Positions 42,501 through 48,500 of a stretch of 64,000 bases of DNA are shown one piece after another (the first letter of the stretch is position 1; every line of letters begins with the position of its first letter). Location: the NCBI RefSeq assembly GCF_963676685.1, contig NC_092352.1:83514001-83578000 (forward strand), read 5' to 3'. The DNA is from Mytilus edulis. Taxonomy: Eukaryota. Position numbers: made by a program.

Positions 42501-45500
42501 AGAATTAATAGGACATGCAAATGAATTTTCGAAAAAAGTACATCAACAAATGAAGTCCAATGAAGATTCAATATCTGTGGAACAGAATAAGACCGTGAAT
42601 TCTAGAGAAAAATTGCGGGAACAGTTTTTGAAAGTTGATGAGCTTATTGGGTCCATAGATCCTGTAGAGTTTTTTGAAAATATTGATAAAGTAAAGATAT
42701 CGTTAGACACTGCCGTACAACCAATCGACTTAAGCCAAATTTGTACACTACAATTCATGCCAAAAAAGTTATCGCCATCAATTTTCGGTTCCTTGACTGA
42801 TGTCGTTTGCGGCGATATTATAGGAATGAAAGTAAATAAGCAGTTCGTCACTGGGTTAACGTCTTGCCACTATTTATCTGTTTCACGGGTAGTAAGGTCG
42901 TCATATCGAGGAGTGTTTAGTACAGTGATTTTGTCATAGTTTGGATAAGTTTGACATGGTTAATTTATGTCGCTTCCTTTAACTATTGCCTCAGTTCTAT
43001 TCACACGAGCAGATAAAAAGCAAATAAGATGTTTGAATCTGTATTGGAGGTCAAACGATCTATATTGGAATCTTTGTTTCACGAAATTAATGCAGAATAA
43101 GCGAGATATCGGAATTGCTATGGTTTGGTTAAGCGATTGACATGGTTCGGTTAAGAGTCTAGAAATTTGTCATGGTTTTGGTCAAGATTGTCATGGTTTA
43201 GATCGAAATAAATATATATGTGTTTCACTTTAATACTGAAAATTTGATTGGTAGCGCCTGTTATTGAACAAAGTTACACTATATATTAACTGCCTGAGAG
43301 AAAAAAAAGCCTGTTTAACAAGATTTAGTGGGTGTAATCGTCAAAGAGTAAATTAAACATGTCATGTTACTTTTCCTTAGTTTTCTACTATATAAATTAA
43401 AATTCACTGCTCTTTTAAACTAGCTTTCGATATAATTTTACAAAAAAGAGACAAAGCGTTGCTTCTGTTTCACATATAATCTTTTCTCTATATGTCCATG
43501 CTTGACTCTGCCGGGGATATCATGAGCGGCATCTCTTGTTAGATAACATAAGACTTCTACTCAAAAGTGGCAGCCAGTCAAAATGTAATTCTTGTTTTTC
43601 ATTTTCTATTCTAGAAAACTCTACATTTTGTTGGTTTTTCTTTATTTTATATTTCGAACCAATTAATGATGAATAAAAGGAGATGTGGGGTTATATGTCC
43701 ATGATACAGTAACCCAACTACAAAACTAACCAAAAGATATTAAGAGTACACCATAAGTCCTCAACCATATAAGAAACCGAATAGTTACGCGTGACATGGA
43801 CAACAGTTTTAAAACTTATTGGTTGAAGAACTATAATAGGTGAAATTACAATAAAAAGTACTTTCAAAGTTCGAATTCAAAATATGAAAGATCACAACTC
43901 CAATTTTGGATTTAAGCCGATATAATGTTCAAGTTTATCAATTATTATTACGAATCAATAAAAATCTTTGTTTGTAATATCATATTTATAAATGCATTGT
44001 GTATAGAATCATTAAATTATTTCAAATATTTTACTTTAAAAGTAATATAGTTTCTATACTATCTGAAAAAAAACTCCTGCTTTCTAGTTTTAAGTATGAG
44101 GTGGTTAATTATAAAATGTGATTGAAAAAGGATTGAAATTCAAAGAAACACGTGTTACATTGTCTGCTACATGTACATTTAAACCGTGTACGACCTTAAT
44201 TTTGACCTGTCTAGACCAAAAATTATCGTTTGTAATAGGACAGAACGTATTAGAAGATGGACGGAGATGAAACAGATGGTAAGTTTGTTGATATATATCA
44301 CAAGTACACTTCATTTGAACTTCTTAGAACATTCAATGATATTTTTATGCTATCTATATTTGCCGTATATCATTTTTCCTTATTTGATTTCCAATTTACT
44401 AGGTAATATCAAATGTAAGATGACGTGGGAAATACATAAATGAGACAGCAAACTAACAACACAAACATGAATTCTTCAACAATAGGATGAATTGAATAGG
44501 CCAAACTCTATATCTGCCCGTTTCTATAAAACGGGTGAATAGATTGAACAGAGACACCCAGAGATCTGAAACCATCAAACTATTTTCAGTATAGCGTAAC
44601 AATAAGGTATGACATAGGACAACTTGTCGCGTCACTTCGGAGTTCACTAGATAAGTTTTTAAAATTAAATGTGTAAAACCGTTCTTTAGCGCTAATGAAT
44701 GCCTGTTCAGTGTCTGTGTTGAAAACGTATATTTCCATTGTGTAACCAAATATGTTAAGCAAAAATACAACGCAGCCAAATTCATAATTGTTTTTTTTTT
44801 GTTATTTATTAACACGATACGGCTCCAAATTTTACACAAATGCATTGAATTGGACTCATACATATTTTTCAGAGGCAATTGCATCTATTGCTCCTTTAGA
44901 CGGGTCATTTGAAGCTATTGGTGATACTGATCTAATTGAAGAAACAGTGGGTTCACTTAATAAAAATGATGGTAAATTAGATGAAAACAATAATGAAGCT
45001 CAACAGGGTTTACCAAAAATAACTAAAGTCCAGTGCGACATCTGTTCTAAAATTGTTCAAAGAAGATGTCTAACACGCCACATGAGAACACACGGGGATC
45101 AACTGATTTGTTCCCATTGTCCAGCGAAATTCTCAGATAGATGGGCTTTGAACGAACATGAAGCACGACATTCAAACCCTTTAATGTGTGATGTTTGCGG
45201 CAAAAAATATACTTCAAGAATCGGCCTAAGTCGCCATTTAAGGGACCATGCCAGTACACGCCCAATAGAGTGTGGTATTTGCCATCAACGGTTTAACGAT
45301 AACGCTCACTTTGAAGGTCATCGCAACAGTAAACATTTAAACTACAAACCGTTTAAATGTACCGTATGCAGCAAGGCTTTCGCTTATAGACAATCAATGG
45401 CAAGACATGTCAAAGAATGTCAAGGGAATAAGTCATACAACTGTATGGAATGTAATGCTGTGTTTAACAGCAAGCGTTCACTAGACCAGCACCATAGTGG

Positions 45501-48500
45501 GAAACACGGGCAGAAAGTGCATACATGTATGTGTGGAAAGTCCTTCCGTTGGGTTCGATCATTCACCAGACATAGTAAAATATGTAAAACAAAATAATTT
45601 ATCAAATAATAAAAATTTAATAAATTCAAAAGTTGTTTTTTGATTCATGTCTAGCATTCATATACATGATATACATTTCTAAATATCATAACATGCTCTT
45701 TTATGAGGAAGGATTTTTTCTTCATCTTTCCTATGGTACTGACGAATTCCTTGAGCACCATGTGCAAATCCATCATATGTGCTCACGATTGCACTTTTCC
45801 GTTTAGCAGTGGATCTTCGGGGTTGGTCAAACATTGCATGGCTTCTGAAATAAATAAACGTAATCATATTTTATTAGCTCTTTTAAATTCAAGTTTATAG
45901 TACGACTGCGGCACTAAAAGATTAAAAAATTTAGAAACAAATATTGAAAAATAGGATCCTCCCACTGATGTTTTATATAATTCTATTCAATATAATTACA
46001 GTGTTAAGTATCTATCGTTATTTATTGCTAGACATAATTCAAAGATGCACGTACAATATATGTAGATAAAGACACCATGTTCCGCCTGATGCATATCACA
46101 AGATGTGAATTATCACTTTATTTTACTCACAATGACCGACATAATGGCTGCCCCCTATGGTACAGGATCCCCTCGCCCTTCAGGAGTGAGCGAGCCCAAT
46201 TCATGACGGAGTTTGTGATGCTACTGACTATTTCATGAGTTATGCTTTCTTGGTATCATTAACATCTTAAAGATTGTTAATATTATGAATATAAGAACAG
46301 GATTTTCTTATTCATTTTTTTTCATTAAGAGAAGGGATGTTACTTAAACTCATATTCATGTTGAATGACTGCTGGACATAACACATTTTGTTTGTAATTT
46401 AAATTTTTCAGTCAGAATGACACACCATAATAGTTATTGATATAAAGTTTCATTAAACTTAGTACCTAAAACCACCGACTGATTTCTTGGCCACATCTTC
46501 TTCTTGTACAGTTGCTGCTTGTGTTTTACAACTGGAAGTAGTATCATACTTTTCTGTCTGTTGATTGTAGACTGGACGTTTAGTAGTTGTGTTCAGATAG
46601 AAACCCCTATTTAATAAAAGTAACACTAATAAGTATATAAGAAGTCAAAGGTTTTTAGCATGCTACTGGTTATGATAAGAACCATGGTATGTTGTAGTTT
46701 CGGGTCCTGTTAGACGACTGTTCCCTATTGTTGCTGGCGGATATTTTTATGTTTTGAGCTGTTACATCATTGTTATAGGTAAACGGGAAGGGTTAAACGC
46801 TAATGGATGTTTAACCCCGTCGTATTTTTTATGTGCCAGTCCAATGTCATTGGTTGTGTTGGTTCGCGCCCGACATATACATTATTTTCGTAATTGCTTT
46901 GCTATAAATTAGACTTAATTTTCTCAACTAAAGTTTTTCATATTCATCATGTCAGGGCCGTCTATAGCTGACTATATGGTATGTGTGTTTTCATTGTTGA
47001 AGGCTGCACAGTTGTCTATATTAGTTAACATCTATTTCAATTAAACTTTTGTGGATAGACAGTATTCTCATTTGAAACAATACCTCATCTTTTTATTTAT
47101 ATTTCAATTGTGTTTATTTTTAAGTGTCACTTCCGCCAGTTCTAAAATTTCAATTGCTTCTAAATTTCACATGTTTCGTAATTTCTTTATAAACAAAAAA
47201 TTAAAACATTTACCTGTGTGGATTCATCCTTGTTGTTAATATTTCACATGCTACACTCATGGCTTTAGGGATTTCAGATGTTTTTAGCACACCAGCACCT
47301 CTTGGGTCCAAGTCTCTAAACGAGGAGAAGAATGTTTCATTGTCCAAACTTCCAATAGATCTGACATTGTATGTTCCAGTTTTTGAAAGGCGATAAAGCT
47401 GAATAAGCCTTTCACAGCTAGTGATTAGTCCAGTAAACAAAATAACAGGTATGTCACTAACATGACTTCCAGGTGGCGGAAACTGTCTAAGACATGTTTG
47501 GCATGAGTCAAGAAGAAATTCTCTCAAATTTAAAAGCTTTTGTACACGTCCATTCGCTGATAAACCTTTTTCATCCATCAAATGCCTCTACCTGAACATG
47601 AATATTGTATGTCTTTAGTTGTTCGCGTAAGAATTCAAGCATCTGTCTTACAGTGTCCGCTTTCAAGTGCTTCGGACTCAACCCATATGCAACCGGAAAA
47701 ACATAAGGCTTGTCGATCGCATAGGTCCTATCCAAGTCACTCAACATGAATACCATAACATCACTTGGTCTATCAAAGCAAAGGGTGAAATGCTGATTGA
47801 TCAAACACTTTACATCATCTATGCAGCTCTTTATTTCAGAAAGGTCTATCGCGTTAAACGTTCGTCTTTGTTCTGTACTTGGAGAGTGTGAACCATAAAC
47901 TCCATCAGTCTGAGCAGAATCGTGTCTACATTGAATGGCTTTCAAAGATTTGAACTCTCCTAAATATTTCACGTTTTGTGTCAGAAAAGTATCTATAAGT
48001 GCTTTTAGTTCTTTGGTTTTCGGCTTTTTTTTGGTAGGTCTTCTGTTGTGCGTTCCATACAGAAATTCTGCCTCTGTAACTATTGCAGTATACAAATCTT
48101 CATCAAATTTCACAAGAAAAGCAGTCGTTGATTCTTCAGACCACGAAACAAAAATGGATTCCGGAATATGATACCCGTAGCTTTCTTTTGAAGCCCCCAT
48201 TTGAGTTATCAGTTGTAATACATAGTAATTTGGAATTGAGTAAGACACATTAGTTTTCCAGTCGGATTTGTATGGACACTTTATTTCGAAGAGAAATCTT
48301 TTCATCTGACCTTCATCTCCTTCACCATCTGGACTGGCAACAAGAAAAGGTTTGTCTTCTCTCCATTTAACGTAGCAGCCGACTTCTTTAAACTTTATTT
48401 TCGGGAAGAGTGATGGTAATATCTTCCCACAAATAGTTGCAACTCCGTGCTTTTCATTTTCAATACCATGTAACATCTGAGGTGTTGGAGACTGTACTCC

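What the first reader, a model, noticed from the sequence alone, without database searches (positions are those of the whole stretch)
44257..45597. Intact 7-finger C2H2 gene carried tail-to-tail with the transposase
Seen in sequence: a two-exon ORF with an acidic N terminus and 7 fingers, no lesions, and polyA signals in the 81-bp gap shared with the transposase 3' end, whereas the transposase is broken twice. Established knowledge: two-component elements (Harbinger Myb/SANT protein, CACTA TnpA, RAG1/RAG2-like) split DNA binding or regulation from catalysis. Inference: this protein may replace the missing THAP domain as the end-binding subunit, act as an autoregulator, or be a captured host ZF gene being spread by the element.
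Basis: partly seen in the sequence, partly recalled or inferred. Interest (0 to 1): 0.68.

Follow-up and report, generated by a model that had tools for sequence, protein, structure and literature searches.

The report
Zinc-finger gene riding a broken mussel transposon
A real, intact gene for a seven-zinc-finger protein sits inside a recently inserted mussel (Mytilus) DNA transposon whose own enzyme gene is gutted by deletions; it moves with the element, but whether it helps transposition is still open.

Summary
Exon 1 (44257-44278), a GT..AG intron and exon 2 (44873-45597) encode a 248-aa protein with an acidic N terminus and seven C2H2-type motifs. An annotated Mytilus galloprovincialis protein uses the same splice and is 99% identical.

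The gene lies inside an 8,054-bp cut-and-paste transposon (42884-50937). It has 75-bp inverted ends (74 of 75 matching), a 5-bp target duplication (TGTTT) and subterminal ACCATGWCA repeats. The element split the coding exon of a B-box/NHL gene; two intact tandem paralogs act as empty sites.

The convergent gene encodes a P-element-like RNase H transposase with a lambda-exonuclease (YqaJ) domain upstream. It belongs to a large animal family (960 representatives). This copy lacks about 60-70 and about 400-480 residues, so it is a non-autonomous deletion derivative.

Related ZF copies appear only in M. galloprovincialis and M. edulis, and the M. edulis copies are fragmentary and decayed. The copy is young, so an intact ZF needs no selection to explain it.

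Carriage by the element is shown. A helper or end-binding role is inferred (about 0.4); a passenger gene is nearly as likely. Co-occurrence across copies could not be tested, because no eukaryotic genome collection was available.

The parts
42884..50937 (.). Whole transposon, 8,054 bp. An internally deleted, non-autonomous copy.
   Evidence: The inverted ends and target duplication bound it. Blastn found no second copy in the window.
42879..42883 (.). Left copy of the 5-bp target-site duplication, TGTTT.
   Evidence: The flanks read ..TATCTGTTT|element|TGTTTGTTTTGATGG. Two intact paralogs carry the site once (CHYLSVCSDD / CHFLSCCSDG). Removing the element and one copy keeps the host frame.
50938..50942 (.). 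Right copy of the 5-bp target-site duplication, TGTTT.
42884..42958 (+). Left terminal inverted repeat, 75 nt. It starts CACGGGTAGTAAGG.
   Evidence: 99% complementary. (74 of 75; the mismatch is at base 3). (2 matches in the window, 0 expected).
50863..50937 (-). Right terminal inverted repeat, 75 nt. It reads CAAGGGTAGTAAGG on the minus strand.
42952..43197 (-). Left subterminal cluster of 4 ACCATGWCA motifs, starting at 42952, 43138, 43168 and 43189. The last two are 21 bp apart.
   Evidence: 7 matches in the window, 1.74 expected, and 6 of the 7 lie in the element's two subtermini.
50495..50524 (+). Right subterminal pair of ACCATGACA motifs, 21 bp apart, in the opposite orientation to the left cluster.
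44257..44278 (+). ZF gene exon 1: ATG plus 7 codons and 1 base. It encodes MDGDETD.
   Evidence: P0001 and P0010 start MD[GE]DETDEAIAS.
44279..44872 (+). ZF gene intron, 594 nt, GTAAGT...TTTTTCAG.
44873..45597 (+). ZF gene exon 2: the acidic region, seven C2H2-type motifs and the TAA stop.
   Evidence: Pfam. 99% identity to P0001. Motif regex. AF2 secondary structure.
45608..45624 (.). Shared 3' region. Two AATAAA signals on the plus strand (45608, 45619) and one ATTAAA on the minus strand (45621-45616), inside the 81-bp gap between the two stop codons.
49033..49860 (-). Transposase piece A: the N-terminal region from the ATG at 49860, starting with a C-x2-C-x12-H-x4-H finger. It ends ...ICVDLKQ followed by a stop.
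   Evidence: matches P0166 aa 1-290 at 91%. (finger). (family profile positions 14-195).
47574..49037 (-). Transposase piece B: coiled-coil region, YqaJ/lambda-exonuclease domain and the first half of the RNase H core (LSDLDR ... EAFDG).
   Evidence: Pfam YqaJ, E 6.5e-12. (profile positions 246-727)..
47214..47587 (-). Transposase piece C: the C-terminal domain, including SLDNETFF. It abuts piece B, so about 400-480 residues are deleted between them.
   Evidence: P0022 aa 1235-1353 against piece B at aa 286-753. (P0167 aa 1213-1334 against aa 337-817). (profile positions 1181-1300).
45845..47213 (-). 3' intron of the transposase gene (CACAG|GTAAAT ... TTTCAG|AAGCC). It holds a small interspersed repeat at 46885-47106.
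   Evidence: sequence, with frame arithmetic done by hand. (the repeat also occurs at 33880-34096 and 8313-8423).
45679..45844 (-). Last exon of the transposase gene, ending with the TAG stop.
   Evidence: it matches the C-termini of P0018 (aa 1648-1688), P0038 (aa 1515-1577) and P0168 (aa 929-984).
41995..42883 (+). 5' part of the disrupted host gene: B-box zinc fingers and a coiled coil.
   Evidence: Pfam zf-B_box. Colinear with the intact paralogs at 19571-21307 and 26674-28431.
50943..51745 (+). 3' part of the disrupted host gene: NHL repeats.
   Evidence: Pfam NHL..

Best explanation
Shown:
- The ORF is a genuine two-exon gene for a 248-aa protein: an acidic, disordered N terminus followed by seven C2H2-type fingers.
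- It lies inside an 8,054-bp cut-and-paste DNA transposon of Mytilus, so it is mobilised with that element. The element has 75-bp inverted ends, a 5-bp target duplication and subterminal ACCATGWCA repeats.
- The element inserted into the coding exon of a B-box/NHL gene.
- Its large convergent gene encodes a P-element-like RNase H transposase with an upstream lambda-exonuclease (YqaJ) domain.
- Two internal deletions have removed about 60-70 and about 400-480 residues, including the conserved DxxH motif. This copy is non-autonomous and could move only with transposase supplied by another copy.

Inferred:
- The ZF gene is a second, element-borne gene acquired by the Mytilus edulis-complex lineage of this transposon family. 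It is transcribed from the left end towards the transposase gene.
- It most likely acts as a DNA-binding helper or regulator of the element. It could bind the subterminal repeats or the element's promoters, with the acidic N terminus recruiting partners. This would resemble the second proteins of MuDR, Harbinger and CACTA.
- Its intactness here needs no selection. The copy is young, and the transposase lesions are deletions, not slow decay.
For: The gene is real:
- An open frame of this length is expected 0.003 times by chance.
- The splice signals are canonical.
- P0001, an annotated M. galloprovincialis protein of 248 aa, is 99% identical over 100% of exon 2 and has the same exon 1/2 junction.
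- P0010, a RefSeq-style LOC model at another locus, shares the same first roughly 50 residues at 85%.

It sits inside the element:
- The inverted ends match at 74 of 75 positions. The end sequence occurs only at these two places in the window.
- The 5-bp duplication is confirmed against two paralogous empty sites, and the host frame is preserved.
- No inverted-repeat pair brackets the ZF gene alone among the 25 longest of 63 pairs.

Transposase identity:
- 960 representative relatives, with full-length ones of 1,200-1,690 aa.
- YqaJ in 20 of 28 and TNP-like_RNaseH_N in 8 of 28 relatives.
- An AF2 model of relative P0019 has pLDDT 87. It matches lambda exonuclease (E 3.5e-5) and the Drosophila P element transposase 6p5a (E 5.4e-5, probability 1.00).
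- Atlas leads point to TNP-like clusters.

Deletions.

Candidate protein-binding sites: 6 of the window's 7 ACCATGWCA motifs lie in the two subtermini, in inverted orientation.

Multi-copy, TE-like behaviour of the ZF:
- 4 of the 13 hits are Mytilus proteins from four different contig lengths.
- The two M. edulis copies are truncated, chimeric models with substitutions at zinc ligands: H to Y in finger 3 of P0002; C to R in finger 5 and H to L in finger 6 of P0003.

Precedents (passages read):
- A complete Spectre MULE carries a C2H2 ORF plus a transposase between 74-bp inverted ends (PMC6446971).
- Kolobok lineages carry varied accessory proteins (PMC9587614).
Against: Against a helper role:
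- The transposase family is widespread, but specific ZF relatives were found only in M. galloprovincialis and M. edulis. The other 9 of 13 hits are generic C2H2 proteins at 26-35% identity.
- M. coruscus has annotated transposase fragments at 66-79% BLASTP identity but gave no ZF hit.
This is weak: the window's own broken transposase has no exact annotated counterpart either.
- The fingers have non-canonical linkers (no TGEKP). Fingers 1 and 7 are atypical. Several helix positions -1/3/6 carry residues that are poor base contacts, such as D/A/E in finger 2 (read from the sequence; the contact rule is recalled).
- The transposase has its own N-terminal C2H2-like finger, so it does not obviously need a DNA-binding partner.
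- The M. edulis transposase copy P0166 is letter-identical to the window over long runs. The M. edulis ZF fragments are only 94% and 91% identical. The annotated copies of the two genes therefore do not show matched histories.
- No expression, binding or interaction data exist. The 5-bp duplication rests on one insertion.
Confidence: 0.42

Rival explanations
1. Passenger gene. The ZF gene was captured or otherwise acquired by one Mytilus subfamily of the element and is simply carried along. It has no role in transposition. It is intact here only because the copy is young.
For: - ZF relatives are confined to the M. edulis complex, while the transposase family has 960 representatives.
- No M. 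coruscus ZF hit was found, although transposase fragments are annotated there.
- The M. edulis copies carry ligand-destroying substitutions and truncations, as expected for neutral decay.
- The inverted ends match at 74/75, which implies recent insertion.
- The transposase has its own N-terminal finger.
- The fingers have atypical linkers and contact residues (sequence).
Against: - No parent host gene was found. The best non-Mytilus hits are generic at 26-35% identity.
- The gene has its own start, intron and polyA signals, and is packed neatly tail-to-tail 81 bp from the transposase stop. That looks more like an organised element gene than a random transduplicate.
- Gene capture by animal cut-and-paste elements is uncommon (recalled).
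Confidence: 0.35
2. Repressor or autoregulator. The ZF protein dampens the element, for example by occupying the subterminal repeats or the transposase promoter. Deletion derivatives that keep it would act as regulators in trans. The convergent 3' ends could also give overlapping antisense RNA.
For: - The ZF is retained intact in a copy that has lost its transposase.
- The subterminal repeat motifs are there.
- The polyA signals of both genes lie within the same 81-bp gap, so the transcripts would overlap.
- Internally deleted P elements are known to encode repressors (recalled, not checked in a paper).
Against: - No functional data exist.
- An acidic N terminus is more typical of activators (recalled).
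- The lineage-restriction and decay arguments that weigh against the helper role apply here too.
Confidence: 0.1
3. The ZF gene is not part of this element's design. It either arrived on a different element nested inside this one, or it is a host gene fortuitously enclosed by two ends.
For: - Small interspersed repeats are nested elsewhere in the element, at 46885-47106 and 50242-50352, so nesting does occur here.
- 1.3 kb of non-coding DNA separates the left end from the ZF start.
Against: - No inverted or direct repeat pair brackets the ZF gene among those listed.
- The two 75-nt ends are near-identical and are flanked by a clean 5-bp duplication inside one host exon. A single insertion event therefore delivered the whole 8 kb.
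- The other Mytilus ZF copies are fragments in unrelated gene models.
Confidence: 0.05

Closest known systems
MuDR (maize Mutator): mudrA transposase plus mudrB helper, convergently transcribed (recalled, not checked in a paper)
   Same: Two genes lie between long inverted ends. They are transcribed towards each other and their 3' ends sit close together.
   Different: The catalytic protein here is P-like with a YqaJ domain, not a MURA/MULE transposase. The target duplication is 5 bp. The second gene is a C2H2 array, not MURB.
Spectre MULE of the aphid Myzus persicae (PMC6446971, passages read)
   Same: The complete element has two ORFs, one a C2H2 zinc-finger protein and one a transposase. 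Its inverted ends are about 74 bp and perfect.
   Different: It belongs to the Mutator superfamily and has an 8-bp duplication. No function is known for its ZF ORF either.
PIF/Harbinger and relatives with a Myb/SANT second ORF; ISL2EU with a YqaJ second ORF (PMC4482050, passages read)
   Same: These are two-ORF cut-and-paste elements in which the second ORF is a putative DNA-binding protein. A YqaJ nuclease is associated with a DDE transposon.
   Different: Here YqaJ is fused to the transposase, and the second ORF is a C2H2 protein. ISL2EU has 2-bp duplications and ends that start GG. Here the duplication is 5 bp and the ends start CA.
P element / THAP9 (PMC7776569, passages read)
   Same: Among solved structures, the P element transposase is the best non-exonuclease match to the RNase H transposase core (6p5a). 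There are weak Pfam TNP-like_RNaseH_N matches (8 of 28). Internally deleted non-autonomous copies occur.
   Different: There is no THAP domain (0 of 28). The duplication is 5 bp, not 8 bp. The inverted ends are 75 bp, not 31 bp. There is an added lambda-exonuclease domain and a second gene.
Kolobok lineages with accessory proteins: KolobokE (lambda-exonuclease-like), Kol0 (KolX) (PMC9587614, Background section and passages read)
   Same: [quoted passage not shown] Accessory proteins are lineage-specific. The lineages are present in mussels.
   Different: The nuclease here is upstream of the RNase H core, not downstream. The duplication is not TTAA, and the ends are CA..TG, not RR..YY. There is no conserved four-ligand zinc finger after DxxH or after the first D.
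Transib / ProtoRAG: RAG1-like plus RAG2-like genes, tail to tail (recalled)
   Same: The duplication is 5 bp, the ends begin CAC/CAA, and the two genes converge.
   Different: The fold match to RAG1 is weaker (6oem_A, E 0.063) than to the P transposase. The partner is a C2H2 protein, not a kelch RAG2-like protein.

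Membership tests
C2H2 zinc-finger proteins (Pfam PF00096) | Repeated C-x2-4-C-x12-H-x3-5-H motifs that score above the Pfam cut-off. | tested here: met
   zf-C2H2 scores E 2.8e-19, 68.8 bits against a cut-off of 25.2. There are seven motifs: five with canonical spacing and two atypical. The AF2 model shows seven beta-beta-alpha units at low confidence.
KRAB zinc-finger proteins (the name sources give to P0002 and P0003) | An N-terminal KRAB domain. | tested here: not met
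   No KRAB family appears among the 7 Pfam families matched by exon 2. The N terminus is acidic and is modelled as disordered.
Two-component cut-and-paste transposons (transposase plus accessory DNA-binding protein) | The second ORF lies between the inverted ends of the same element. | tested here: met
   The ZF gene at 44257-45597 lies inside the ends at 42884-42958 and 50863-50937, which are flanked by a 5-bp duplication.
Two-component cut-and-paste transposons (transposase plus accessory DNA-binding protein) | The second ORF is present in autonomous copies across the family and in related species. | not testable with these tools
   No eukaryotic genome collection was available. As a proxy I compared annotated-protein contig lengths. 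This is uninformative, because broken copies are not annotated.
Two-component cut-and-paste transposons (transposase plus accessory DNA-binding protein) | The accessory protein binds the element ends and/or the transposase. | not tested
   This needs EMSA, DAP-seq or co-IP. A recognition-code prediction was judged to have too little power.
P element / THAP9 superfamily | An RNase H catalytic core like that of the P element transposase. | tested here: met
   Foldseek matches 6p5a_A at E 5.4e-5, probability 1.00, over 260 columns. PF21787 matches 8 of 28 relatives at E<=0.1, best 1.4e-5.
P element / THAP9 superfamily | [quoted passage not shown] | tested here: not met
   No THAP appears among the 16 families matched by the 28 relatives. 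Window piece A has no Pfam match.
P element / THAP9 superfamily | A GTP-binding insertion domain splitting the RNase H fold. | tested here: inconclusive
   PF21788 matched none of the 28 relatives. Atlas feature hits to clusters carrying TNP-like_GBD score 0.78-0.88, which is a lead only.
P element / THAP9 superfamily | An 8-bp target-site duplication. | tested here: not met
   The duplication is 5 bp (TGTTT), judged against two paralogous empty sites. This rests on one insertion only.
Kolobok (KolobokE) | A TTAA duplication and ends that read 5'-RR..YY-3'. | tested here: not met
   The duplication is TGTTT and the ends read CA..TG. The criteria come from PMC9587614.
Kolobok (KolobokE) | A zinc finger between C/DxxH and the last E, and a CCHC finger after the first D. 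| tested here: not met
   In the 61-sequence alignment, only one column with C or H in at least 60% of rows lies in each interval: C504 and C978.
ISL2EU (PHIS) | YqaJ protein as a separate second ORF, a 2-bp duplication and ends starting GG. | tested here: not met
   YqaJ is fused within the transposase ORF. The duplication is 5 bp and the ends start CA. The criteria come from PMC4482050.
Transib / ProtoRAG | A RAG1-like core with a RAG2-like partner. | tested here: not met
   RAG1 (6oem_A) scores only E 0.063, behind the P transposase. The partner is a C2H2 protein. The 5-bp duplication and CAC terminus do match, but the Transib consensus is recalled.

The most novel reading that the evidence does not exclude
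This element may represent an undescribed lineage of P-like DNA transposons. Its marks are a lambda-exonuclease domain fused upstream of the RNase H core, a 5-bp target duplication and CA termini. On this reading, the Mytilus branch has become a true two-component system. The convergently encoded seven-finger protein would be the subunit that recognises the ACCATGWCA subterminal repeats. Deletion derivatives that keep it, like this copy, would then stay transposition-competent partners or regulators in trans.
Probability: 0.15. Interest if true: 0.7.

Novelty: new variant of a known kind. Interest (0 to 1): 0.5.

Why it matters
Second genes of DNA transposons (Myb-like, MURB, TnpA, RAG2-like, KolX) are where DNA targeting and regulation are split from catalysis. 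They are also a known source of host genes.

A polydactyl C2H2 gene carried by a young, probably recently mobile P-like element would be a natural test case. It could show how transposons acquire sequence-specific partners, and how zinc-finger genes spread. Mussel genomes are known for presence/absence variation (recalled).

The element has also knocked out one member of a tandem B-box/NHL gene family. That is a concrete example of transposon-driven gene loss.

If the ZF gene is only a passenger, the finding is a well-documented but ordinary cargo-bearing deletion derivative.

Tried and rejected
- Single-sequence PDB searches with the three transposase pieces gave nothing significant.
- A family-profile search of the PDB found only lambda exonuclease. 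The link to the P element came only from the fold search.
The 7 members of the P0001 cluster could not be resolved into loci or species.
There is no verdict.
- A zinc-finger recognition-code prediction of the binding site was considered and dropped. The linkers are non-canonical and many contact residues are uninformative. A site for fingers 3-6 would specify only about 7 bases, which is expected about once by chance in 8 kb.
- Tandem repeats in the element: none.
- Base composition and GC3 do not separate the ZF, transposase and host genes.
- Membership of ISL2EU, Kolobok and Transib was rejected on defining features (see the membership test).
- Literature. The searches for YqaJ or exonuclease with transposons and for Mytilus or C2H2 second ORFs found no description of this family or of a ZF-bearing P-like element. 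For one search, only 40 of the 56 papers were listed. Supplements were not opened; the Kolobok alignments and PHIS tables might list related families.
The genome-contig collection holds only bacteria and archaea and was not used.

Full report
**Source and scope.** The window is AT-rich (about 29-36% GC over most of its length) and holds no N. Protein matches place it in the mussel genus Mytilus. It is not human. Only exon 2 (codons from 44875) was sent to searches. Exon 1 is 22 nt and was compared by eye. The joined product was never assembled.

**The observation.**
- The start ATG is at 44257, in the context AGAAGATGG.
- Exon 1 ends at 44278 before GTAAGT. The acceptor TTTTTCAG ends at 44872. 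Exon 2 runs to the TAA at 45595-45597.
- The stop-to-stop frame is 269 codons. About 0.003 such frames are expected by chance in this window.
- Pfam finds C2H2 fingers (E 2.8e-19). A pattern search finds seven motifs. Five have canonical spacing. Finger 1 is one residue short. Finger 7 has C-x1-C. Fingers 5 and 7 end in Cys.
- A low-confidence AF2 model (pLDDT 55.1, pTM 0.19, 5-row alignment) draws seven beta-beta-alpha units and a disordered first 47 residues.
- The N terminus is acidic: 10 D/E against 4 K/R in the first 51 residues of exon 2, plus MDGDETD from exon 1.
- The 81-bp gap to the transposase stop holds AATAAA twice on the plus strand and ATTAAA once on the minus strand.
- An annotated M. 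galloprovincialis protein of 248 aa (P0001) is 99% identical over all of exon 2 and begins MDGDETDEAIAS.

**The element.**
- A 75-nt inverted repeat (74 of 75 positions) lies at 42884-42958 and 50863-50937. Its sequence occurs nowhere else in the window.
- The flanks carry TGTTT on both sides.
- The element interrupts an ORF with B-box fingers upstream and NHL repeats downstream.
- Two intact single-exon paralogs sit in tandem at 19571-21307 and 26674-28431. They read CHYLSVCSDD and CHFLSCCSDG across the site. The interrupted gene reads CHYLSV | element | CFDG.
- Removing the element and one TGTTT keeps the host frame. This fixes the element at 8,054 bp, with ends CA(C/A)GGG... and a 5-bp duplication.
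- Six of the window's seven ACCATGWCA motifs (1.74 expected) lie in the two subtermini in opposite orientations. Each end has a pair spaced 21 bp apart.

**The convergent gene.**
- On the minus strand, three abutting frames and a last exon form one gene: 49860-49033, 49037-47574, 47587-47214 and 45844-45679.
- The 1.37-kb stretch before the last exon is a canonical GT..AG intron.
- Piece B carries a YqaJ domain.
- An exhaustive HMMER search found 960 representative relatives. Full-length ones are 1,200-1,690 aa.
- YqaJ is found in 20 of 28 full-length relatives and the P-element-type TNP-like_RNaseH_N in 8 of 28 at E<=0.1. THAP and C2H2 models are found in none.
- A sequence profile finds only lambda exonuclease in the PDB.
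- An AF2 model of relative P0019 (pLDDT 87.1, pTM 0.72) matches lambda exonuclease (E 3.5e-5) and the Drosophila P element transposase strand-transfer complex (6p5a, E 5.4e-5). RAG1 trails at E 0.063. Atlas leads agree.
- The conserved residues fit an RNase H core. They are LSDLDR on the first strand, FDGQ after the fourth strand, then DxxH and a C-terminal SLDxExFF.
- Against relatives, the window copy lacks family-profile positions 196-245 and 728-1180. That is about 60-70 aa after ICVDLKQ and about 400-480 aa after EAFDG, including DxxH.
- The copy is therefore a non-autonomous internal-deletion derivative.

**Classification.**
- The family is P-like by fold. It fails three of the P features listed in a P element review (PMC7776569): the THAP domain, the 8-bp duplication and 31-bp inverted ends.
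- It fails the Kolobok signatures given in PMC9587614. The duplication is not TTAA, the ends are not RR..YY, and no conserved zinc fingers follow DxxH or the first D.
- It differs from KolobokE in having the nuclease upstream of the core.
- It is not ISL2EU, where YqaJ is a separate ORF, the duplication is 2 bp and the ends start GG (PMC4482050).
- My literature searches found no description of this architecture. Supplements were not seen.

**Is the ZF gene part of the family?**
- It lies within the ends, and no repeat pair brackets it alone.
- Four of the 13 protein hits are from Mytilus. P0001 is intact. P0010 is another M. galloprovincialis locus that shares the first roughly 50 residues at 85% and then runs into a gag-like CCHC sequence.
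- Two M. edulis models are 94% and 91% identical. Both are truncated, fused to unrelated exons and carry substitutions at zinc ligands.
- The other 9 hits are generic C2H2 proteins at 26-35% identity. No M. coruscus ZF hit appeared, although transposase fragments are annotated there.
This test is blind to unannotated broken copies.
- The M. edulis transposase P0166 is identical to the window over long runs. The family has therefore been active or exchanged very recently.
- Some family members, including the closest ones, start with their own C2H2-like finger (8 of 62).
- Together, these results show a multi-copy, element-borne gene that decays like transposon DNA and is restricted to the M. 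edulis complex. They do not show that it is needed for transposition.

**Mechanism.**
- Shown: a single insertion event delivered an 8-kb unit containing an intact ZF gene and a gutted transposase gene into a host exon.
- Inferred (about 0.4): the ZF protein is a lineage-specific helper or regulator that binds element DNA. The subterminal repeats are candidate sites. This would resemble the second proteins of MuDR, Harbinger and CACTA (recalled) and the C2H2 ORF of the Spectre MULE (PMC6446971).
- Nearly as likely (about 0.35): it is a passenger gene.
- Intactness is not evidence of selection. The copy is young, and the transposase lesions are deletions. I read these as the kind made by interrupted repair after excision (recalled).

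**Left open.** Copy-by-copy co-occurrence, dN/dS, expression, DNA binding and protein-protein contact were not tested. The complex prediction could not be queued. The members of the P0001 cluster could not be listed.

Noticed in passing
41995-42883 and 50943-51745; paralogs at 19571-21307 and 26674-28431: The transposon has split the single coding exon of a B-box/coiled-coil/NHL (TRIM-like) gene. This gene is the third member of a tandem array. The two intact paralogs serve as empty sites.
   Followed up: yes
56566-63885: A 67-bp satellite with 109 copies at 99% identity. It coincides with the rise in GC to about 41% at the window's right end. It creates spurious 90-aa repeat ORFs.
   Followed up: partly
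45679-49860 (minus strand) and relatives P0014-P0174: The transposase belongs to a large family: 960 representatives at 50% identity. Members combine a lambda-exonuclease/YqaJ domain with a P-element-like RNase H core, and here the duplication is 5 bp. I found no description of this architecture in the literature searches. It may be an unclassified lineage.
   Followed up: partly
47574-49037 compared with the M. edulis protein P0166: Outside one frameshifted stretch, the M. edulis copy is letter-identical to the window over runs of about 250 and 150 residues. This suggests very recent activity, or exchange between the hybridising species.
   Followed up: partly
46885-47106, 50242-50352, 33880-34096, 8313-8423: A short interspersed repeat at about 70-73% identity. 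It is nested in the transposase 3' intron and in the right subterminal region, and also occurs twice elsewhere in the window.
   Followed up: no
P0010 (M. galloprovincialis LOC143084259), aligned to 44872-45012: A gene model at another locus joins the ZF gene's first roughly 50 residues to a gag-like CCHC-knuckle sequence. It is probably a second, disrupted copy of the ZF gene that is read through into a retroelement.
   Followed up: no
45598-45678: The polyA signals of the two convergent genes interleave within 81 bp. The two mRNAs would overlap at their 3' ends and could form double-stranded RNA.
   Followed up: no
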